This document shows, piece after piece, positions 56,666 through 64,000 of a stretch of 64,000 nt of DNA. The translations under genes were made by a program, and so were the position numbers. Within the stretch, counting starts at the first letter, position 1; each line of letters opens with the position of its first letter. Below the pieces are notes generated by a model. The model ran no database searches. It was not told the DNA's origin and saw only the letters and a list, made by a program, of their open reading frames with translations. The stretch is from an uncultured Acidimicrobiia bacterium (GTDB lineage Bacteria > Actinomycetota > Acidimicrobiia > UBA2766). Where the stretch lies: contig CAYJLW010000001.1 of the NCBI GenBank assembly GCA_964370965.1, positions 98,084 to 162,083 on the forward strand, given 5' to 3'.

Positions 56666-57601
56666 CTAGCGACCGTTGTTATCGAGGACATCGAGCACCC
56701 AGGCCATGATGAGGAACTGGGCACCCAGCAACAGGGGGGCGACCGAGAGCAGTACGGTTCCCGTGGAGGCTACCGGCGGCCCGATCGTCTCGACCACAAC
56801 CCAGATGCCGAAGCCGACACCCCACGCGGTGAGGGCGAGTCCCAGACCGAGGAACATGGCGACCGGCGAGAAGGACCAGAGGACGTACTTCCAGAGCATC
56901 CGTCGCCAGAAGCCCACGAAGAACGTCCACAGGAGGGCGAAGCTCGCCCGGGGGAGGCGGATGCCGGAGACCTCGTCGCCGTAGACGGCGGGGACCGCCA
57001 CGTCAGTGGCCCGGGCCCGCAGGATGTTCAGGCGGATCATGAGGTCGCACTCGAAGGAGTAGTCCCGCCGGATGTCGTCGAGCGGGAGCCGCCGGATCAT
57101 GTCCGTGGTGAGCGCCGTGTAGCCGTTCAGCGGGTCGAAGAGGTTCCAGTAGCCGGTTGCCGCCTTGGCGAGGAAGCTCACGAAGACGTTCCCTAAGATC
57201 CTGGTACGGGGCATCCCCTTGAAGGACAGGAAGCTGAAGAACCGGTTGGCCTTCGCGAAGTCGTAGCCCTCGGTGCAGATCTTGTGGAGGATGTCGGGGA
57301 GGTAGTCGGGGTCCATCTGCGCGTCGCCCGCCATCACGACCGAGATGTCGACGTCGAGCTCCACCGCCCGCCGGTGGCCCGTGAGGACAGCGCCTCCCAC
57401 TCCCTGGTTCCTCTCCAGCGTGACCACCTCCACCCGGGGGTCACCTGCCGCCCAGGCCTTCTCGGCCGTGGAGTCCGTGCTGGCGTCGTCGATGACGATG
57501 ACGTGGTCGACGAGGTCCGGCATCGTCGTGATCGTCCTGGCGATCAGGGTCTCTTCGTTGTGGGCGGGGACGACCACGGCAACGCGACGGCCTTCGTACA
57601 T
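56666..57601 (-). CDS. DPM1-like GT2 with C-terminal TMs
   Basis: VVVPAHNEE, IDDASTD, NQGVGGA, MAGDAQMD, AKANRF, DPLNGY; TGATG overlap with the upstream oxidoreductase. Confidence 0.88.
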   Translation of the reverse strand: MYEGRRVAVVVPAHNEETLIARTITTMPDLVDHVIVIDDASTDSTAEKAWAAGDPRVEVVTLERNQGVGGAVLTGHRRAVELDVDISVVMAGDAQMDPDYLPDILHKICTEGYDFAKANRFFSFLSFKGMPRTRILGNVFVSFLAKAATGYWNLFDPLNGYTALTTDMIRRLPLDDIRRDYSFECDLMIRLNILRARATDVAVPAVYGDEVSGIRLPRASFALLWTFFVGFWRRMLWKYVLWSFSPVAMFLGLGLALTAWGVGFGIWVVVETIGPPVASTGTVLLSVAPLLLGAQFLIMAWVLDVLDNNGR

Positions 57602-58551
57602 CAGGCCTGCTTCGCCGCCGCCAGGATGCGGTCGCACAGCTCCAGAGCGGCGCGCCCGGCGCGCCCGTCGACGACAAGCTCGCCCTGCCCGCTGACGGCG
57701 GCGACGAAACGCTCCAACTCCAGCCAGAGCGGCTCACCGCGATGGGACAGGTAGGGCACCTCGACGATCGAGGTCTCCCGGAGCTGGCGTGCGCCGTCGT
57801 CGAAGTACTCCACGGAGGCCTGCCGGCGGACGGTGATGTCCTGGCGGAGGAGATCGACCTCGACGACGGAGTCCTCCTGGACGACGTCGAGGCGGCGGAC
57901 CTTGTGCTGGGCGATCCGGCTCACGGTGAGCTGGGCGACCAGCCCGGACGCGAAGCGGATCGTCGCCGTGGCGACGTCCTCGCTGTCGGAGCGCACGTTC
58001 GTGGCCTCGGCGTGCACGGCCACAGGTTCCGAGCCGGCCAGGCTGAGGACGAGGTCGACGTCGTGGATCATGAGGTCCCGGATCACACCCTCGGAGATGC
58101 GGGCCGTGTAGGGGCTGAGACGCTGTGTCTGGATGAACAGGGGCTTGTCGACGAAGAGGGGCAGGTCGAGGCAGACCGGGTTGAAGCGCTCCACGTGGCC
58201 CACCCCGAGGAGCTTGCCGGCCCGGTCGGCGGCGGCGATGAGGTCGTCGGCTTCCGGCACCGTGGCGGCCACCGGCTTCTCGACGAGGAGATGGACGCCC
58301 ATCTCCAACAGGGCGACTCCGAGGCCGAGATGCGCCTCTGTGGGGACGGCGAGGACGGCGGCGTCGGCGGCCCCCGCGACGTCTGAGAGATCCGTGCTCC
58401 ACGCGCAGCCGTGGCCGGCGGCGAGGTGCTTCGCCCTGTCGGGATCGCAGTCGACGACGAGGGCGAGTCGGGCGCCGGGCAGCATCGAGAGGATGCGGGC
58501 ATGGTTGGCGCCCATGGCGCCGCAACCGACCACGGCGGTCTCCACGATCAC
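57601..58551 (-). CDS. Gfo/Idh/MocA oxidoreductase, WbpB/WlbA-like
   Basis: VVGCGAMG, LVEKP, GHVERFNP, DLMIHDVD. Confidence 0.85.
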   Translation of the reverse strand: MIVETAVVGCGAMGANHARILSMLPGARLALVVDCDPDRAKHLAAGHGCAWSTDLSDVAGAADAAVLAVPTEAHLGLGVALLEMGVHLLVEKPVAATVPEADDLIAAADRAGKLLGVGHVERFNPVCLDLPLFVDKPLFIQTQRLSPYTARISEGVIRDLMIHDVDLVLSLAGSEPVAVHAEATNVRSDSEDVATATIRFASGLVAQLTVSRIAQHKVRRLDVVQEDSVVEVDLLRQDITVRRQASVEYFDDGARQLRETSIVEVPYLSHRGEPLWLELERFVAAVSGQGELVVDGRAGRAALELCDRILAAAKQA

Positions 58552-59648
58552 GCCACGGCCTCCTTCACGGCGTGGGCGATCCGGGCGAGGTCGCGTTCCT
58601 GCAGGGCCGGGTGCACAGGAAGGGACAGTACGCGGGCGGCGGCGTCGCGTGCCCGCTCCAGGGGACCGGCCGCGCGGACCTGCGGGTGGTCCCGGTATAC
58701 GCCGAGATCGCTCATCACCTGGGGGTAGTAGACACCGCAGCCCACGCCACGTTCTGCCAGTGCGCTTACGACGGCATCCCTGTCGAGGGACGGGTCGAGC
58801 AGGATCGTGTACTGGTGCCAGGCGTGCGTCCTCCCAGTGGGGGAGCCGGGAGTCGTCACGCGTGCGACTCCGGTCAGGGCGGCGTTCAGGGATTCGGCGT
58901 TGCGCCGGCGGGCCTCGGTCCAGGCGGGCAGGCGTTTGAGCTGCGCCCGGCCGATGGCGGCGGCGACGTCGGTCATGCGCAGGTTCGTGCCCACGGCGAC
59001 GTACTCGTAGCGGGACCGCATCCCTTGGTTGCGCAGCACGCGCACGCTATCCGCGATCACGTCGTCGTCCGTGGTGACGGCCCCCCCCTCACCGGTGGTC
59101 ATGTTCTTGGTGGGGTAGAACGAGAAGCAGCCCGCGATGCCCAGGGACCCGGCGGGGTTGCCGCCGAGAGTGGCGAGGTGCGCCTGGGCGGCATCCTCGA
59201 GCACGGGAAGGGCGCACCTGCCCAGGGCGTCGACGTCCGCGCAGAGGCCGAAGAGATGCACGGGCAGGACCAGCTTCGTGCGTGGCGTGACGGCATCGAG
59301 GGCCGCCGCGGGGTCGAGCGTGAAGTCGTCACTGACGTCCACGAGCACCGCCGTGGCGCCGGAACGGATGACGGCGTTCACGGTCGCCGCGAACGTGAAG
59401 GGGGACGTGACCACCTCGTCGCCCGCTCCGACGTCGAGGGCGGCAAGGGCGAGCTCCAGGGCCGCCGTGCCCGAAGACACGGCCACCGCGTGGCGGGTGC
59501 CGCTGAGGTCCGCGGCGAGCTCCTCCTCGAAGGCGGCGACCTCGGCCCCCTGGGCGAGCCGACCGCTGCACAGGACGCGGTCGACGGCGGAGCGTTCCTC
59601 GTCCCCGATCAACGGCTGGGCCACCGAGATTGTGGCGGCTCGGGTCAC
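58548..59648 (-). CDS. DegT/DnrJ/EryC1/StrS aminotransferase, WbpE/WlbC-like
   Basis: SSGTAAL, PVHLFG, EDAAQA, SFYPTKNMTTGEGG, WHQY; GTG start overlaps the upstream TGA. Confidence 0.92.
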   Translation of the reverse strand: MTRAATISVAQPLIGDEERSAVDRVLCSGRLAQGAEVAAFEEELAADLSGTRHAVAVSSGTAALELALAALDVGAGDEVVTSPFTFAATVNAVIRSGATAVLVDVSDDFTLDPAAALDAVTPRTKLVLPVHLFGLCADVDALGRCALPVLEDAAQAHLATLGGNPAGSLGIAGCFSFYPTKNMTTGEGGAVTTDDDVIADSVRVLRNQGMRSRYEYVAVGTNLRMTDVAAAIGRAQLKRLPAWTEARRRNAESLNAALTGVARVTTPGSPTGRTHAWHQYTILLDPSLDRDAVVSALAERGVGCGVYYPQVMSDLGVYRDHPQVRAAGPLERARDAAARVLSLPVHPALQERDLARIAHAVKEAVA

Positions 59649-60187
59649 GGGAGCTCCAGTGTCGTGGCGCAGCCTCCGCATGCGCTGCCCGGACCCCCGG
59701 GGACAGGGCGCCCGCAACGGCACACCCACCCCACGGGCCGGGCGGGACTGCCCACCACGAGTCGGTGCGGGGCCACGTCGGCCGTGACGACTGCCCCGGC
59801 CCCTACTGTCGCCCATTCCCCGACTGTCACTCCGCACACGATCGTGGCGTTGGCGCCGATGGCGGCTCCGCGACGCACGAGCGTGGGCGTGATCCCCCAG
59901 TCCTCGTTGACCGCTCTCGGGTAGAGGTCATTCGTGAACGTGGCCGCAGGGCCCACGAACACCTCGTCCTGGAGGGTGACGCCAGCGTAGACGGACACGA
60001 AGTTCTGGACCTTGCAGCGGTCGCCGATGGCAACCCCGGCGTCCACGTATGACGACTTCCCGATGACGCAGTCCGCGCCGACGACGGCGCCGGCGCGGAC
60101 ATGGGCGAAATGCCAGATCCTCGTGCCGGGGCCCACTTCGGCGCCTTCCTCGACGACGGCTGTGGAGTGAACAATGGGGGCACCCAC
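59645..60187 (-). CDS. LbH N-acetyltransferase, WbpD/WlbB-like
   Basis: IWHFAHV, IGDRCKVQN..SVY, FTNDLYPRA, IGANATIVCG, GSPAR; TATCTT 6 nt upstream. Confidence 0.9.
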   Translation of the reverse strand: MGAPIVHSTAVVEEGAEVGPGTRIWHFAHVRAGAVVGADCVIGKSSYVDAGVAIGDRCKVQNFVSVYAGVTLQDEVFVGPAATFTNDLYPRAVNEDWGITPTLVRRGAAIGANATIVCGVTVGEWATVGAGAVVTADVAPHRLVVGSPARPVGWVCRCGRPVPGGPGSACGGCATTLELP

Positions 60188-60232
60188 GTCGCCAAGATAG
60201 CTCGCCCGTGCCGGACCTCCGGGGTCACCCCT

Positions 60233-60859
60233 TCACCCCACCCACTCGGCGTGGTCGGCCATATCGAGGAGGTCACGGTCTCCGGAGGAGTCGCCGTAGG
60301 CCCAGAGCTCCACGGGGGTCCCGCCCAGCCACGCCCGCAGGAGGCGGGCCTTCTCCGGGCCGCGCACGTTGGGGCCGAGGAGGCGGCCCGTGAGGTGGCC
60401 GCCGGCGACCTCGAGGCGGGTGGAGATGACGTGGTCGGCACCGAGGCGGGCGGAGACGTGGCGGAGGTAGACGTCGAGGGACGCCGAGACGATCACGATC
60501 TCGTGGCCGTCGTGGCGGTGCTGCGCGAGGCGCGCCAGGGTGTCGACCCGGAGACGACGGGCGTCGACGCGGGCGGCGAAGGACTCCCCGGCGGCGAGGT
60601 AGGCGTCCTCCGGGAAGCCGGTGAGGAGGCGGGCCACGAACGCCGCCTTCAGGGCGTCGCGGTCGCCCCGGCCGGCGGCCACACGAGCCACGGGCACGGC
60701 CTCGGCAGTCGCGGTGACGAGCAGGCGCCCCGCGCCCCGCAGGAAGCGCAGGAAGGGCACGAACGTGTCCCGGCGGGTGAGGGTGCCGTCGAAGTCGAAC
60801 GCCGCCACCCGGCGCAAGGAAGCGCCGTCCGCGGGGCCTTCAGCGGGCAACGTAGACAC
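60233..60859 (-). CDS. HAD-IB family phosphatase
   Basis: FDFDGTLT, IVSAS, GPEK, YGDSSGD. Confidence 0.9.
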   Translation of the reverse strand: MSTLPAEGPADGASLRRVAAFDFDGTLTRRDTFVPFLRFLRGAGRLLVTATAEAVPVARVAAGRGDRDALKAAFVARLLTGFPEDAYLAAGESFAARVDARRLRVDTLARLAQHRHDGHEIVIVSASLDVYLRHVSARLGADHVISTRLEVAGGHLTGRLLGPNVRGPEKARLLRAWLGGTPVELWAYGDSSGDRDLLDMADHAEWVG

Positions 60860-61799
60860 CGCCGGCGTAGACGCCCAGCCAGCAGAGGCTGATCACCTGG
60901 AGGGTGCGGTCGCCGAGGACGACGTCTTCCGGGGTGGCGCCCTTGCCGGTCTCCAGGAGAAACGCGTAGCGCAGGATGGCGAGGACGAAGGGCACGATCG
61001 AGAGCTGGTACCAAGGGAAGCCGCCGGGGCTCTTCGTCGCCTGCTCGAAGGCCCAGAGGCAGTAGGCGAGGATCGTGACGCCCGACGCCATCGACCACAC
61101 GTAGCGGAGGTACGTGACGGAGTACTCGCCCAGCGTGGAGCGGGCGTGCACGCGGTCTTCGCCGAGGTCGATGTGCTCGCCGTGGCGCTTCCCGGACACC
61201 ATGAAGAGGGACCCGAAGGACGCCACGATGAGGAACCACTCCGAGATCGGGACGTCGGTGGCGACACCGCCGGCGACCGCCCGGATGATGAACCCGGAGG
61301 CGACGGCGGCGAGGTCCACGACGGTCACGGTCTTGAGCCAGAGTGTGTAGGACGTGGTGACCGCCACGTACGCCGCCGCGACGCCGACGAACTGGAGGCG
61401 CACGAGGGCGGCGACGCCGAAGCCGGCCAGGAGGAGCGCCACGCCCACGGCGACCGCCAGCCAGACCGGCACGATCCCGGCGGCGACGGGCCGGTGGCGC
61501 TTCTCAGGGTGCGCCCGGTCGGCCTCGGCGTCGCGGGCGTCGTTGAGGAAGTACGTACCCGAGGCGACGAGGCAGAAGGCGACGAAGGCGAGGCCGGCCT
61601 CGGCGAGCACCGGACCCTCGGTGAGGACCCCGCCGGCGCCGGGGGCGGCGAAGACGAGGAGGTTCTTCAACCACTGCTTGGGACGGGCCGAGCGCAGGAG
61701 GCCTCTACCGAGTGATCCGGGCCGGGGCGCGCCGGCGTCCTCGGGAGACCCCGGAGCAGCCGGGGAGGGGGGAGAGTCGTGCGAGGAGACCTCGGCCAA
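60840..61799 (-). CDS. Polyprenyl-phosphate phosphoribosyltransferase (Rv3806c-like UbiA superfamily)
   Basis: RPKQWLKNLLVF, YFLNDARD..ADRAHPEKRHRP.A.G, KRHGE, PEDVVLGD; TTG 61799 chosen from a -10 TACAAT at 61842-61837. Confidence 0.9.
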   Translation of the reverse strand: MAEVSSHDSPPSPAAPGSPEDAGAPRPGSLGRGLLRSARPKQWLKNLLVFAAPGAGGVLTEGPVLAEAGLAFVAFCLVASGTYFLNDARDAEADRAHPEKRHRPVAAGIVPVWLAVAVGVALLLAGFGVAALVRLQFVGVAAAYVAVTTSYTLWLKTVTVVDLAAVASGFIIRAVAGGVATDVPISEWFLIVASFGSLFMVSGKRHGEHIDLGEDRVHARSTLGEYSVTYLRYVWSMASGVTILAYCLWAFEQATKSPGGFPWYQLSIVPFVLAILRYAFLLETGKGATPEDVVLGDRTLQVISLCWLGVYAGGVYVAR

Positions 61800-61886
61800 G
61801 GCGGGACCTTCGGGTGGGCCGGGCAGGGGCGGCGGGATTGTACCGGTGTTCCTTCTCGGCCCTCGGGCGCGAATCCCCCCGGTGTG

Positions 61887-61915
61887 TTGCCCTTGCCCCG
61901 AGTTGTGCCTACAAT
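61887..61915 (+). promoter_or_regulatory. SigA-type promoter for the transaldolase-like/rho operon, back-to-back with a minus-strand TACAAT (61842-61837)
   Basis: TTGCCC (61887-92), 17-nt spacer, TACAAT (61910-15). Confidence 0.65.
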
Positions 61916-62091
61916 GTGGCGCCCCCCCGTCCACTGATCGGTCTCCCGGTGACACTCGCGGAGACCGGGTCGGGCAGGTACGGGAGGCGCAGTTCCCACC
62001 GTCCCGCTCCCTCGGGCACGTCCTTGCTCGACGCCGCAGGCGTCAACTCGTCCCGGGGGTGCAAGGCCGGTTCCGCATCACGGAGAACCAC

Positions 62092-62997
62092 GTGAAGCTC
62101 TTCCTCGAAACCGCCAGCCTGCGAGAGGCGCAGGACGTCGCGGGCTGGGGCGTCCTGTCGGGCGTGACCACCACCCCCACGCTGTGCGCCGCGGAGGGCG
62201 TCGACGTCCGCCAGCGAGCCCTCGAGATCGCCCAGGTGGTCGCCGGCCCCGTGGCCGTGAGCATCCAGGGCGAACGCCGCGTCGACCTCGTCGAGAACGC
62301 CAAGGAGATCGCCGCTCTCGCCGAGAACGTCGTCGTGCAGCTCCCCGTGGGCGTCGAGGGTCTCGCCGCCTGCCGGGTTCTCGCCGAGTCCGGGATCAGC
62401 GTCGCCCTCACGCTCGTGTTCTCCGGCGCCCAGGCCCTCCTGTGCGCCGCCGCCGGGGCCGCATACTGCTGCCCCTACCTCGGTCGCCTCGACGACGTCG
62501 GGGCCGACGGCATGGCGCTCCTCGAGGACATCGTGCAGATCTACGCGGTGCAGGGTTTCGCCACCGAGGTGGTGGCGTCGTCCCTGCGCAACCCCGCCCA
62601 CGTGGTGGGGGCAGCCCGGGCCGGGTGTGACGCCGCCGCCGTCCCCCACGAGGTGTTGCGCCAGATGGCCAGTCACCCTCTCACAGACCTGGGCGCCGCC
62701 CGCTTCGGCGAAGACCTGGCGCGCATCGGTCTCGGCGGGCCCGGTTACGACCGGGGGGCCTTCGCCCCCCCGCCGGCCATGGCGCCAACCACGACCGTGC
62801 AGCCCCCCGGCGTGTCGGTGCAGCCGACCCTCGTGCCCGCGCCCCCGCCGGCGGGGGCCCCGGCGCCCGGATACCCGGGCCCGGTCCCGGCACCGCGCCC
62901 GGTCATGCCGGGCCCGATGCCCGCCCCGCCCGTCACCGGACAGGCGTCAGACCTTCCACACCGACCCGACGGCCGCAACAGGCCGTCAGGCAACTAA
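62092..62997 (+). CDS. TalC/FSA-fold protein lacking catalytic residues, with Pro-rich C-terminal tail
   Basis: KLFLETA, GVTTTPT, VVQLP, TLVFS..QALL.A.AGA.Y..PY.GRLDD, SSLR, HPLTD; GGAG SD before GTG 62092. Confidence 0.88.
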   Translation: MKLFLETASLREAQDVAGWGVLSGVTTTPTLCAAEGVDVRQRALEIAQVVAGPVAVSIQGERRVDLVENAKEIAALAENVVVQLPVGVEGLAACRVLAESGISVALTLVFSGAQALLCAAAGAAYCCPYLGRLDDVGADGMALLEDIVQIYAVQGFATEVVASSLRNPAHVVGAARAGCDAAAVPHEVLRQMASHPLTDLGAARFGEDLARIGLGGPGYDRGAFAPPPAMAPTTTVQPPGVSVQPTLVPAPPPAGAPAPGYPGPVPAPRPVMPGPMPAPPVTGQASDLPHRPDGRNRPSGN

Positions 62998-63011
62998 CGG
63001 GGAGACCCACG

Positions 63012-64000
63012 ATGGAAACGACCACGGAGCGAGCCACACTCGAGACCAAGTCGAAGGCCGACCTGGAGGAGATGGCCAAGGCCATCGGCGTGCGGGTGAC
63101 CACGGCCATGCGCAAGGGCGAGATCGTCTCGGCCATCCTCGACCAGGCGGCTCCCGGGTCCAACGGCGGGGGTGGCGGGAGTTCTGCGTCCGCGGCGACG
63201 TCCAGGGCGACGTCGAACGCGCCGCAGCCCCCGCCGGCTCCGGCTCCGGCCGACGCCAGAGTCGACCCGAAGCCGCCGACGGAGACGGAAGCGAAGGTGC
63301 CCCAGGGAGCGGACAACACCGACACGGGGGCGACGGTCCCGAAGGCCGGCGGGGAACCCGCGGGCGGCGAGAAGCCGTCAGGCGCTCCCGCCGGTGACGG
63401 GGCGTCCTCCGGGGGCGAGAAGGCCTCAGGCGGCGGCTCCGGCCCCGACGCCGGCACGGGCGAGCGCACCGTGCGCCGCGTCGAGCGGGGCGAGGGCGAA
63501 GGCGGCCAGCGCCTCTCGCGCCGGGCCCGCAGAGAACGCAACCGCCGCGGTCAGGGCGGCGGCGGTGGTCAGGGCGGCGGCGGCGGTGGCCAGGGCGGCG
63601 GCGGTCAGGGCCGCGGTCAGGGCGGCGGCGGCCAGGGCCGCGGTCAGGGCGGCGGCGGTGGCGGAGGAGGGGGCAACCAGCGGCGGCCCCACGACCGCCA
63701 GCACGACCGTCAGCAGGACCGTCAGCAGGACCGCGAGCCCCAGGAGGTCGTGGAGCGCCACGGGATCCTCGACGTCCTCCCCGACGGCTACGGCTTCATC
63801 CGCACGAACGGCTTCCTGCCCGGTCGCGACGACGTCTACGTGTCGCTCAGCCAGGTGCGGCGCTTCCACCTCCGGCGGGGGGACGAGATCACCGGCGCCA
63901 TCCGGCCGCCCAAGAGCGACGAGAAGTTCCCGGCGCTGCTGCGCATAGTCGACGTCAACGCCATGGCGCCGGAGCAGGCGTCGGACCGACCCCGCTTCGA
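63012..64000 (+). CDS. rho: Transcription termination factor Rho, 5' part (truncated by window end) with long N-terminal insertion
   Basis: Open frame from ATG 63012 to the window end; N-terminal helical domain (KSKADLEEMAKAIG..MRKGEIVSAI); GILDVLPDGYGFIR, DVYVSLSQVRRF.LR.GD. Confidence 0.97.
   Translation, partial: METTTERATLETKSKADLEEMAKAIGVRVTTAMRKGEIVSAILDQAAPGSNGGGGGSSASAATSRATSNAPQPPPAPAPADARVDPKPPTETEAKVPQGADNTDTGATVPKAGGEPAGGEKPSGAPAGDGASSGGEKASGGGSGPDAGTGERTVRRVERGEGEGGQRLSRRARRERNRRGQGGGGGQGGGGGGQGGGGQGRGQGGGGQGRGQGGGGGGGGGNQRRPHDRQHDRQQDRQQDREPQEVVERHGILDVLPDGYGFIRTNGFLPGRDDVYVSLSQVRRFHLRRGDEITGAIRPPKSDEKFPALLRIVDVNAMAPEQASDRPRF
63549..63737 (+). repeat. Low-complexity coding tandem repeats in rho (GQGGGG/GQGRG units; xDRQ x4)
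   Basis: Repeated GGTCAGGGCGGCGGC-type units at 63549-63672; a 12-bp unit encoding HDRQ-HDRQ-QDRQ-QDRE at 63690-63737. Confidence 0.85.

What the first reader, a model, noticed from the sequence alone, without database searches (positions are those of the whole stretch)
62092..62997. Catalytically dead transaldolase homologue with a Pro-rich tail directly upstream of rho
Seen, compared with TalC/FSA: Schiff-base Lys is Gln83 (CAG 62338-40, VVQLP for VVKIP), Asp6 is Glu, Asn28 is Thr (TTTP), the acid/base Glu/Gln is Ser and the second substrate Asn is Ala. Phosphate-binding Arg (GRLDD), Ser/Arg (SSLR) and the oligomer-swapping HPLTD helix are kept, and the frame is intact. An ~85-aa P/A/G-rich tail is added and rho starts 14 nt later. 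Several targeted changes argue against sequencing error or decay. Inference: a repurposed oligomeric sugar-phosphate sensor or scaffold; display of disordered tails next to an IDR-bearing Rho suggests a link between carbon status and termination.
Basis: partly seen in the sequence, partly recalled or inferred. Interest (0 to 1): 0.72.

Follow-up and report, generated by a model that had tools for sequence, protein, structure and literature searches.

The report
Conserved dead transaldolase upstream of rho
This gene encodes a short transaldolase-type protein that has lost its catalytic lysine and most of its active site and gained a floppy proline-rich tail; selection has kept it in a small group of Acidimicrobiia, and it sits next to rho because the working enzyme it descends from already sat there.

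Summary
ORF 62092-62997 (301 aa) is a TalC/FSA-type TIM barrel (Pfam 6e-37; AF2 pLDDT >96; TM 0.96 to T. maritima Tal). It has Gln83 in place of the Schiff-base Lys, plus E6, T28, S57, A105, C127 and Y129. A ~90-aa disordered Pro/Gly/Ala tail follows, and rho starts 14 nt after the stop.

This is neither an error nor decay. The CDS is identical in four independent assemblies. Thirteen protein clusters and four species genomes (Acidimicrobiia MAGs) form one monophyletic clade (500/500 bootstraps), and all members carry Gln83. Barrel dN/dS is 0.06-0.10.

Only Q83 and R132 of 11 pocket residues are invariant in the clade, and no Lys is invariant anywhere. It is therefore a true pseudoenzyme, and a specific sugar-phosphate sensor is poorly supported.

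The rho linkage is inherited. Active, Lys-bearing TalC lies directly upstream of rho-rpmE-prfA-prmC in three other Actinomycetota lineages, one of which falls in the clade's sister group. One pseudo-Tal lineage has lost the linkage.

Best reading: a non-catalytic, probably decameric scaffold that displays tails and is co-transcribed with rho. Its partner is unknown. It appears undescribed and is mis-annotated as an aldolase. Interest is moderate.

The parts
61887..61915 (+). Promoter-like site (TTGCCC-17 nt-TACAAT), the likely promoter of the pseudo-tal/rho operon
   Evidence: It is the only sigma-70-like match in 61600-63200, against 0.0 expected in shuffles. The -10 region CGAGTTGTGCCTACAATGT is identical in the 79%-identical relative L059. 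This is a consensus match only and has not been shown to function.
61916..62091 (+). Putative 5' leader with RBS GGAG at 62082-62085
   Evidence: About 76% identical to L059 upstream DNA. No Rfam match. Folding is not significant, z = -1.48.
62092..62724 (+). TalC/FSA-type TIM-barrel domain (aa 1-211) of the pseudo-transaldolase, including the C-terminal helix with the HPLTD motif
   Evidence: Pfam TAL_FSA 6.3e-37. AF2 pLDDT is 96-98 over most of residues 1-200 (blocks of 87-89 at 131-140 and 191-200), with eight predicted strand/helix repeats. Foldseek matches 1vpx with TMt 0.96 and rmsd 1.1. dN/dS versus L059 is 0.10.
62338..62340 (+). Codon 83, CAG = Gln, in place of the Schiff-base Lys
   Evidence: Alignment to 1vpx shows VVVQLP versus VVIKIP. 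Gln is present in all 13 protein clusters and in L014-L016. The codon is CAG in nine loci and CAA in L059, a synonymous change that keeps Gln.
62485..62487 (+). Codon 132, Arg (GRLDD), the only canonical pocket residue invariant across the clade
   Evidence: Invariant in A1. It is encoded by five different codons across loci: CGC, AGG, CGG, AGA and CGT.
62725..62997 (+). Disordered Pro/Gly/Ala-rich C-terminal tail (aa ~212-301) and the stop codon
   Evidence: 27 Pro, 13 Gly and 11 Ala in 91 residues. pLDDT is 43-71 with no secondary structure. GC3 is 0.88. dN/dS versus L059 is 0.26. Tails of 31-98 aa are present in all family members whose DNA was read, but their sequences are not conserved between subclades; P0008 has only about 10 residues after the barrel.
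62998..63011 (+). 14-nt spacer with RBS GGGAG (63000-63004)
   Evidence: Read directly from the sequence. No terminator-like site lies between the two genes.
63012..64000 (+). 5' part of rho (runs off the window). Covers the Rho_N domain, a ~198-aa Gly/Arg/Gln-rich disordered insertion and the start of the RNA-binding domain
   Evidence: tblastn with the L001 Rho. The full 618-aa product on L062 has Rho_N, Rho_RNA_bind and ATP-synt_ab domains.

Best explanation
The gene is the positional descendant of the short (TalC/FSA-type) transaldolase that lies directly upstream of rho in several Actinomycetota.

In one Acidimicrobiia lineage the Schiff-base lysine was replaced once by glutamine. Constraint on the rest of the catalytic pocket was then lost, so the protein cannot perform class-I aldol or transaldol chemistry.

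The barrel, the C-terminal helix that swaps between subunits in TalC/FSA decamers, and many helix-surface residues stayed under strong purifying selection. A 30-100-aa disordered Pro/Gly(/Tyr)-rich tail was added.

Most likely mechanism (inferred): a non-enzymatic, still oligomeric (pentamer/decamer) scaffold or adaptor. Its function would reside in the assembled particle and its multivalent tails, possibly with residual anion or phosphate binding at Arg132.

It is expressed from the same transcript as rho because it inherited that operon position, not because of a demonstrated functional tie to Rho.

Shown: loss of catalytic residues, single origin, purifying selection, inherited synteny, disordered tail. 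Inferred: oligomeric state, scaffold role, co-transcription.
For: Fold and dead site:
- No Lys is invariant anywhere in the 13-sequence family, and the window protein has only K2 and K71. A relocated nucleophile is therefore unlikely.
- Twelve pocket or pocket-lining positions that are at least 93% conserved in 185 canonical sequences are changed or variable in the clade: N28, E57, K83, P85, N105, T107, S127, F129, A163, R166, T183 and H195. By contrast, 65 of 212 barrel positions are invariant.

Selection:
- NG86 dN/dS for the barrel is 0.06-0.10 in five close pairs with dS 0.50-0.72. For the tail it is 0.26-0.81.
- Gln83 is kept through a CAG/CAA change, and Arg132 through five different codons.

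Single origin and ancestry:
- The clade is monophyletic in 500/500 NJ bootstraps with the catalytic columns masked. Its sister group contains the active, rho-adjacent Tal of L009.

Synteny:
- Active TalC sits 0-58 nt upstream of rho-rpmE-...-prfA-prmC in L009, L011/12 and L013.
- Dead Tal sits 12-69 nt upstream of rho in nine lineages.
- It persists without rho in L060, so its value is not purely in cis to rho.

Oligomer:
- P196, L197, T198, L200, R204, F205 and D208 of the C-terminal helix are invariant.
- That helix mediates inter-subunit swapping in decameric FSA (PMC7379660, citing Thorell 2002). B. subtilis Tal is reported as a decamer (PMC7092467).
Against: - No experiment and no partner: nothing here shows oligomerisation, binding or any phenotype.
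- The 'gain of constraint' on helix surfaces is confounded because the clade is young and narrow (mean column entropy 0.74 versus 1.57).
- Invariant Q83 and R132, plus the conservative D/E6, could mean that a small ligand is still bound.
- Whether these genomes hold another, active transaldolase was not determined. None lies in the 64-kb window.
- The family is rare: 13 clusters and four species genomes. The comparative sample is therefore small.
Confidence: 0.55

Rival explanations
1. Sugar-phosphate sensor. The dead pocket still binds F6P, S7P or E4P without turnover and reports carbon status to a partner, possibly Rho.
For: R132 and Q83 are invariant, and position 6 stays acidic (D/E) across the clade. 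The window protein also keeps T107, S164 and R166.
Against: The second phosphate site (S164/R166) is lost in P0005/7/13 (SLQ) and P0009-11 (GVT, DVA, GLT). N28, N105, T107 and S127 vary among small residues. Only 2 of 11 pocket positions are invariant, against 31% of all barrel positions, so the pocket is no better conserved than the average site.
Confidence: 0.17
2. Rho-linked factor. The decamer and its tails bind Rho or its Gly/Arg-rich disordered insertion and tune termination or condensate formation. Co-translation from one mRNA would keep the two proteins in proportion.
For: Nine of ten dead-Tal lineages have a 12-69 nt gap to rho, and in the window no terminator lies between the genes. 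All linked Rho proteins carry 139-198-aa G/R-rich IDRs. Tails contain Gly-Tyr motifs (GYGYED, GYD, GYP) that could pair with RG-rich sequence (the pairing is inference).
Against: The adjacency predates loss of catalysis. The active Tal in L009 also sits beside an IDR-bearing Rho. L060 has lost the adjacency. Tail sequence and net charge are not conserved. There is no similarity to known Rho-binding regulators; Pfam finds TAL_FSA only.
Confidence: 0.12
3. Regulatory or structural subunit that co-assembles with an active TalC-type paralogue, or another enzyme, encoded elsewhere in the genome. This is a common fate of pseudoenzymes.
For: The oligomerisation helix and barrel are strongly conserved. 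Pseudoenzymes often regulate active paralogues (general knowledge).
Against: No second Tal lies in the window. No TalC paralogue was seen on any fetched locus. Whole genomes could not be searched.
Confidence: 0.1
4. Translated spacer or cis-element. The ORF is kept only because rho expression needs its promoter, its translation (to avoid polarity) or RNA signals within it. The C-rich tail-coding RNA could act as a rut-like site for rho autoregulation.
For: The promoter-like site lies upstream of the ORF and there is no terminator before rho. The tail-coding DNA is C-rich: C/G 1.42 in the window, 1.12-1.45 in the other rho-linked tails, and 0.82 in the unlinked L060. Tail dN/dS is up to 0.8, and tail dS is lower than barrel dS in the L005/L061/L016 trio.
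Against: Barrel dN/dS of 0.06-0.10 shows selection on the amino-acid sequence itself. The gene persists away from rho in L060. The C-richness follows trivially from Pro (CCN) codons. This idea could apply to the tail only.
Confidence: 0.04
5. Sequencing or assembly error, or a recently inactivated gene in decay.
For: None beyond the missing Lys.
Against: The CDS is identical in four independent assemblies. Frames are intact in all members. The clade is monophyletic with internal dS up to ~1. dN/dS is far below 1.
Confidence: 0.01

Closest known systems
Short (TalC/FSA-type) transaldolases: T. maritima TM0295 (1VPX), T. thermophilus (1WX0), B. subtilis YwjH (3R8R), T. acidophilum (3S0C)
   Same: 45% identity to 1VPX over the whole 210-residue barrel. 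Same predicted fold (TMt 0.96, rmsd 1.1). The GRLDD and PLTD motifs and the C-terminal helix are retained.
   Different: It lacks the Schiff-base Lys and the Asp, Glu, Asn and Asn of the proton relay and substrate site. It scores below the TIGR00875 equivalog cut-off. It carries a ~90-aa disordered tail that canonical members lack (3-7 residues after the barrel).
E. coli fructose-6-phosphate aldolase FSA (1L6W)
   Same: Same subfamily and decameric architecture. The window protein has Tyr at the position (129) where FSA has its catalytic Tyr and transaldolases have Phe (the F-to-Y switch is cited in PMC7092467).
   Different: Identity is lower (E 3e-28). There is no Lys. The Tyr is not conserved in the clade, where the position is Y, A, E, F or S.
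Active TalC directly upstream of rho in other Actinomycetota (P0092/L009, P0105 'Ca. Solincola'/L011, P0068/L013), and the B. subtilis fbaA-ywjH...glpX-rho locus
   Same: Same gene position and orientation relative to rho-rpmE-prfA-prmC. P0092 falls in the sister group. In B. subtilis, transcripts from the fbaA-ywjH promoter read through to rho (PMC11599450).
   Different: Those proteins keep the full D-N-E-K-N-T-S-F-R-S-R signature and have no long tail.
Pseudoenzymes in general (catalytically dead paralogues kept as scaffolds or regulators)
   Same: Loss of the catalytic nucleophile together with strong purifying selection on the fold.
   Different: No dead transaldolase family was found in the literature searched. 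Here the dead copy replaced the active one at its locus rather than arising as an extra paralogue nearby.

Membership tests
TalC/FSA transaldolase subfamily (Pfam PF00923; NCBIfam TIGR00875) | TAL_FSA domain and (beta/alpha)8 barrel fold | tested here: met
   Pfam 6.3e-37. AF2 pLDDT is 96-98 over most of the barrel. Foldseek matches 1vpx with TMt 0.96.
TalC/FSA transaldolase subfamily (Pfam PF00923; NCBIfam TIGR00875) | Schiff-base-forming Lys at the end of strand beta4 | tested here: not met
   Gln83 (CAG 62338-62340). Gln is present in every clade member, and no Lys is invariant anywhere.
TalC/FSA transaldolase subfamily (Pfam PF00923; NCBIfam TIGR00875) | Catalytic and substrate residues Asp6, Asn28, Glu/Gln57, Asn105, Thr107, Ser127 | tested here: not met
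   The window protein has E6, T28, S57, A105, T107 and C127. These positions are variable across the clade.
TalC/FSA transaldolase subfamily (Pfam PF00923; NCBIfam TIGR00875) | Phosphate-binding Arg132 and Ser164/Arg166 | tested here: inconclusive
   All three are present in the window protein. Across the clade only R132 is invariant, and S164/R166 are lost in six of 13 clusters.
TalC/FSA transaldolase subfamily (Pfam PF00923; NCBIfam TIGR00875) | Score above the curated equivalog cut-off | tested here: not met
   TIGR00875 scores 213.8 bits against a cut-off of 245.95.
TalC/FSA transaldolase subfamily (Pfam PF00923; NCBIfam TIGR00875) | Decamer built by swapping the C-terminal helix | not testable with these tools
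   The helix is predicted (residues 196-211) and its PLT-L-RF-D residues are invariant. The oligomeric state needs experiment or multimer modelling.
TalC/FSA transaldolase subfamily (Pfam PF00923; NCBIfam TIGR00875) | Transaldolase or aldolase activity | not testable with these tools
   Requires an enzyme assay.
Pseudoenzyme (dead homologue maintained by selection) | Catalytic residues missing while the fold stays under purifying selection in several lineages | tested here: met
   dN/dS is 0.06-0.10. The clade is monophyletic in 500/500 bootstraps. 65 of 212 barrel positions are invariant.
Known Rho-binding regulators (Rof/YaeO, Psu) | Sequence or domain similarity to a known Rho inhibitor | tested here: not met
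   TAL_FSA is the only Pfam domain, and the NCBIfam hits are all transaldolase or FSA models.

The most novel reading that the evidence does not exclude
The dead-transaldolase decamer, with its ten disordered Pro/Gly/Tyr tails, is a dedicated partner of the IDR-bearing actinobacterial Rho. It might act as a co-scaffold of Rho condensates or as a brake on Rho loading. It would be made in fixed proportion from the same mRNA, so an ancient metabolic neighbour of rho has been turned into a termination regulator.
Probability: 0.1. Interest if true: 0.8.

Novelty: new variant of a known kind. Interest (0 to 1): 0.45.

Why it matters
- **Annotation.** Public records name these proteins 'fructose-6-phosphate aldolase' (P0011). 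Metabolic reconstructions of these Acidimicrobiia would therefore wrongly credit them with a transaldolase or FSA step.
- **Evolution.** This is a clean natural case of an enzyme dying in place. There was a single K-to-Q event, the pocket then drifted, and the oligomeric shell stayed under strong selection and acquired a disordered tail. That makes it useful for studying how pseudoenzymes arise.
- **Biology.** If the protein does interact with Rho, or senses a metabolite, it would be a new kind of regulator in a poorly studied class of environmental Actinomycetota. The present data do not show this.

Tried and rejected
- **More family members.** The metagenome-contig scan with the family profile returned only canonical TalC at 50% identity or less over short segments, no new members. 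The genome-contig scan gave four family loci and 41 canonical Bacteroidota-type loci.
- **Family size.** The search of 1.84 billion representatives found one representative of this family (P0012, 458 bits). The next hit scored 242 bits, so the family is narrow.
- **Sister lineage.** A homologue search with the active sister P0092 was meant to show whether Acidimicrobiia also keep an active TalC. Its hits are labelled only 'Actinomycetota bacterium', so it was not informative.
- **Closest canonical hits.** P0014 is followed by an HtrA-like protease, not rho. The Firmicutes MAG locus of P0017 is not next to rho either. The tal-rho adjacency is therefore not universal.
- **Second transaldolase in the window.** tblastn and an HMM built from 256 canonical and other non-family sequences, run against all six-frame ORFs, found none.
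- **RNA element in the leader or around the junction.** No Rfam hit at E<=1, and the leader fold has z = -1.5.
- **rut-site idea.** C-richness of the tail DNA is real but is explained by Pro codons, so it cannot be separated from the protein composition.
- **Failed script.** The first tree script timed out and a second had a bug.
- **Literature.** Searches for a dead or inactive transaldolase, or for transaldolase in Acidimicrobiia, found nothing relevant.

Full report
**1. The observation**

- The ORF starts at GTG 62092, with GGAG 6 nt upstream, and ends at TAA 62995-62997, giving 301 aa.
- It matches Pfam TAL_FSA at 6.3e-37. Its best solved relatives are short transaldolases: T. maritima 1vpx (4.7e-57) and T. 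thermophilus 1wx0.
- It scores 213.8 bits on NCBIfam TIGR00875 (fsa_talC_mipB), below the curated cut-off of 245.95.
- I mapped residues through an alignment with 1vpx and many homologues. The canonical signature D6 N28 E57 K83 N105 T107 S127 F129 R132 S164 R166 is identical in 176 of 269 collected sequences. The window protein reads E T S Q A T C Y R S R.
So are the retained GRLDD, SSLR and HPLTD motifs. S127C and F129Y are additional changes.
- The last ~90 residues are 30% Pro, 14% Gly and 12% Ala. AlphaFold2 models them without structure at pLDDT 43-71, whereas most of the barrel scores 96-98. The model superposes on 1vpx with TM 0.96 and rmsd 1.1 A.
- The tail is in a coding-like frame, with GC3 of 0.88 against 0.92 for the barrel.
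- rho begins at ATG 63012, 14 nt after the stop, behind a GGGAG. The full-length product on a longer contig of the same organism has Rho_N, Rho_RNA_bind and ATPase domains.
- The CDS is base-for-base identical in four independently assembled metagenome contigs. A sequencing error at codon 83 is excluded.

**2. It is a family, not an accident**

- A homologue search gave 12 further protein clusters (50-83% identity, 219-308 aa) that all carry Gln at the Schiff-base position. The next best hits (about 50% identity, ~215 aa) are ordinary Lys-bearing enzymes.
- Scanning one genome per species found four carriers: three MAGs labelled Acidimicrobiia and one labelled 'Actinobacteria bacterium ATB1'.
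- A profile search of 1.84 billion representative proteins found a single representative for the family. The score then dropped from 458 to 242 bits. A metagenome scan added no members. The family is real but small and phylogenetically narrow.
- In a neighbour-joining tree built with the 11 catalytic columns removed, the Gln-bearing sequences form one clade in 500 of 500 bootstraps. This points to a single origin.

**3. Selection**

- Nei-Gojobori estimates for five close pairs (dS 0.50-0.72, not saturated) give dN/dS of 0.06-0.10 for the barrel and 0.26-0.81 for the tail.
- Gln83 is CAG in nine loci and CAA in the window's closest relative. Arg132 is written with five different codons.
- 65 of 212 barrel positions are invariant in the clade. 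No lysine is invariant anywhere, and the window protein has only two lysines in total. A relocated nucleophile is therefore very unlikely.
- Twelve pocket or pocket-lining positions that are at least 93% conserved in 185 active sequences are changed or variable within the clade: N28, E57, K83, P85, N105, T107, S127, F129, A163, R166, T183 and H195.
- Only Q83 and R132 of the 11 signature residues are fixed.
- The pattern is a dead pocket that has largely been released from constraint, inside a shell that is tightly constrained. Part of that shell is the C-terminal helix, whose P196, L197, T198, L200, R204, F205 and D208 are invariant. In FSA this helix crosses onto the neighbouring subunit and holds the decamer together (PMC7379660). 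B. subtilis Tal is also reported as a decamer (PMC7092467).

**4. The rho linkage**

- Dead Tal is followed by rho after 12-69 nt in the window and in L059, L001/L002, L003/L004, L005-L008/L017, L061, L014, L015 and L016.
- The same is true of active, Lys-bearing TalC in three other Actinomycetota lineages. In these, tal is followed after 0-58 nt by rho, rpmE, (DUF1385), prfA and prmC.
- One of these active proteins (P0092/L009) falls in the sister group of the dead clade. Its Rho also has a long Gly/Arg-rich insertion.
- In B. subtilis the short transaldolase gene ywjH lies just upstream in the rho locus, and transcripts from the fbaA-ywjH promoter read through to rho (PMC11599450).
- The adjacency is therefore inherited and older than the loss of catalysis.
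- It is not universal. It is absent in a Firmicutes MAG, in the contig of P0014 and in Bacteroidota.
- One dead-Tal lineage (P0007/L060, short tail) has lost rho as a neighbour yet keeps an intact, conserved gene.
- The protein's value therefore cannot lie only in cis to rho. The neighbourhood alone is no evidence for a functional tie to termination.

**5. The tail**

- All members whose DNA was read have 31-98 extra residues. P0008 has only about 10 residues after the barrel.
- Sequence is conserved only within subclades. Net charge flips from basic in the window and L059 to acidic elsewhere.
- Recurrent features are Pro/Gly richness, Gly-Tyr motifs (GYGYED, GYD, GYP), and a loosely shared [DG]GG[FT]G-P motif near the C-terminus in three subclades but not in the window.
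- This is typical of a disordered, weakly constrained appendage. Multivalent display on an oligomer is a plausible role but is inferred.

**6. Operon anatomy in the window**

- One sigma-70-like site (TTGCCC-17-TACAAT, 61887-61915) lies ~177 nt upstream of the start. It is the only such match in the region, and its -10 region is identical in L059.
- No terminator-like site separates the two genes.
- No Rfam family matches, and the leader does not fold better than shuffles.
- Co-transcription is likely but not shown.

**7. Interpretation**

- Best supported: an in-place pseudoenzyme. It is the descendant of the rho-adjacent transaldolase, now non-catalytic and kept for a structure-dependent role, probably as an oligomeric scaffold or adaptor carrying disordered tails.
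- The sugar-phosphate-sensor idea keeps some support from the invariant R132 and Q83. It is weakened by loss of the second phosphate site and of the sugar-binding residues in much of the clade.
- A Rho-directed role is possible but unsupported.
- A purely cis-acting 'translated spacer' role is contradicted for the barrel by its dN/dS. It could still apply to the tail.
- Error or decay is excluded.
- Not determined: whether the carriers have an active transaldolase elsewhere. None lies in this 64-kb window.

**8. Novelty and score**

- Searches of the paper library found no description of a dead transaldolase family. Public annotation calls these proteins fructose-6-phosphate aldolase.
- I classify it as a new variant of a known kind. 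It is of moderate interest: a clean example of enzyme death in place and a real annotation trap, but it is rare, has no functional lead, and its most eye-catching feature (rho next door) is explained by ancestry.

Noticed in passing
Proteins P0160, P0202, P0212, P0226, P0257: Five other 50%-identity cluster representatives of short transaldolases also lack the Schiff-base Lys (G, N, S, N and R at that position). They have different patterns at the other catalytic sites and no long tail. Loss of catalysis seems to have happened several times independently in this subfamily.
   Followed up: partly
L005:6631-6828, L061:6631-6828, L016:4631-4828 (tail-coding DNA just upstream of rho): In this trio, synonymous divergence in the tail (dS 0.16-0.27) is two- to three-fold lower than in the barrel (0.50-0.63). 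This might reflect a nucleotide-level constraint upstream of rho, or recombination. It is not seen in the window/L059 pair or the L014/L015 pair.
   Followed up: no
window 61887-62091: The promoter-like -10 region and parts of the ~175-nt leader are conserved with L059 (76% identity overall, with long identical runs such as GTTCCCACCGTCCCG). L059 also carries a ~50-nt insertion just before its start codon. There is no Rfam match and no significant fold.
   Followed up: partly
window 63150-63740 (rho): Rho carries a ~198-aa disordered insertion with 60 Gly, 22 Arg and 17 Gln. It includes GGGGQG/RGQ repeats and a DRQ(H/Q)DRQQDR run. Similar insertions of 139-171 aa occur in all Rho proteins next to dead Tal, and in the Rho next to active Tal in L009. 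They are absent from L011 and L013.
   Followed up: partly
window 57601-61955, minus strand: Divergently transcribed from the pseudo-tal is a probable cell-envelope glycan cluster. It encodes a UbiA-family prenyl-phosphate transferase, a HAD phosphatase, a hexapeptide acyltransferase, a DegT-type aminotransferase and a GFO/IDH/MocA oxidoreductase, followed further on by GT2 and methyltransferases. In other family loci the upstream neighbours are VldE-like, GT2 and SpoIID genes instead.
   Followed up: no
L009:2604-5017 and L011:2546-4830: Upstream of the active tal-rho pair in two Actinomycetota lineages lies a conserved pair of genes. One has a CpgS_N (cyclic 2,3-diphosphoglycerate synthetase N-terminal) domain and the other is an AAA_33/zeta-toxin-like kinase.
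   Followed up: no
L062:12872-15443 (same organism, just beyond the window end): In this genome a 420-aa BNR/Asp-box repeat protein and a small reverse-strand ORF lie between rho and rpmE, which are adjacent or nearly so in the relatives.
   Followed up: no
window 62059-62091: Gene callers start this protein 11 codons upstream (P0001, 312 aa, MQGRFRITENH...). All homologues begin at the M/V-[KR]-LFL motif and GGAG lies 6 nt before GTG 62092, so the shorter 301-aa form is more likely.
   Followed up: yes
L060:1-5522: This is the one dead-Tal lineage not followed by rho. It sits between a 1191-aa protein with an Amidase_2 (N-acetylmuramoyl-L-alanine amidase) domain and a class-I methyltransferase whose start overlaps the pseudo-tal stop. 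It also has the shortest tail, 31 aa.
   Followed up: partly
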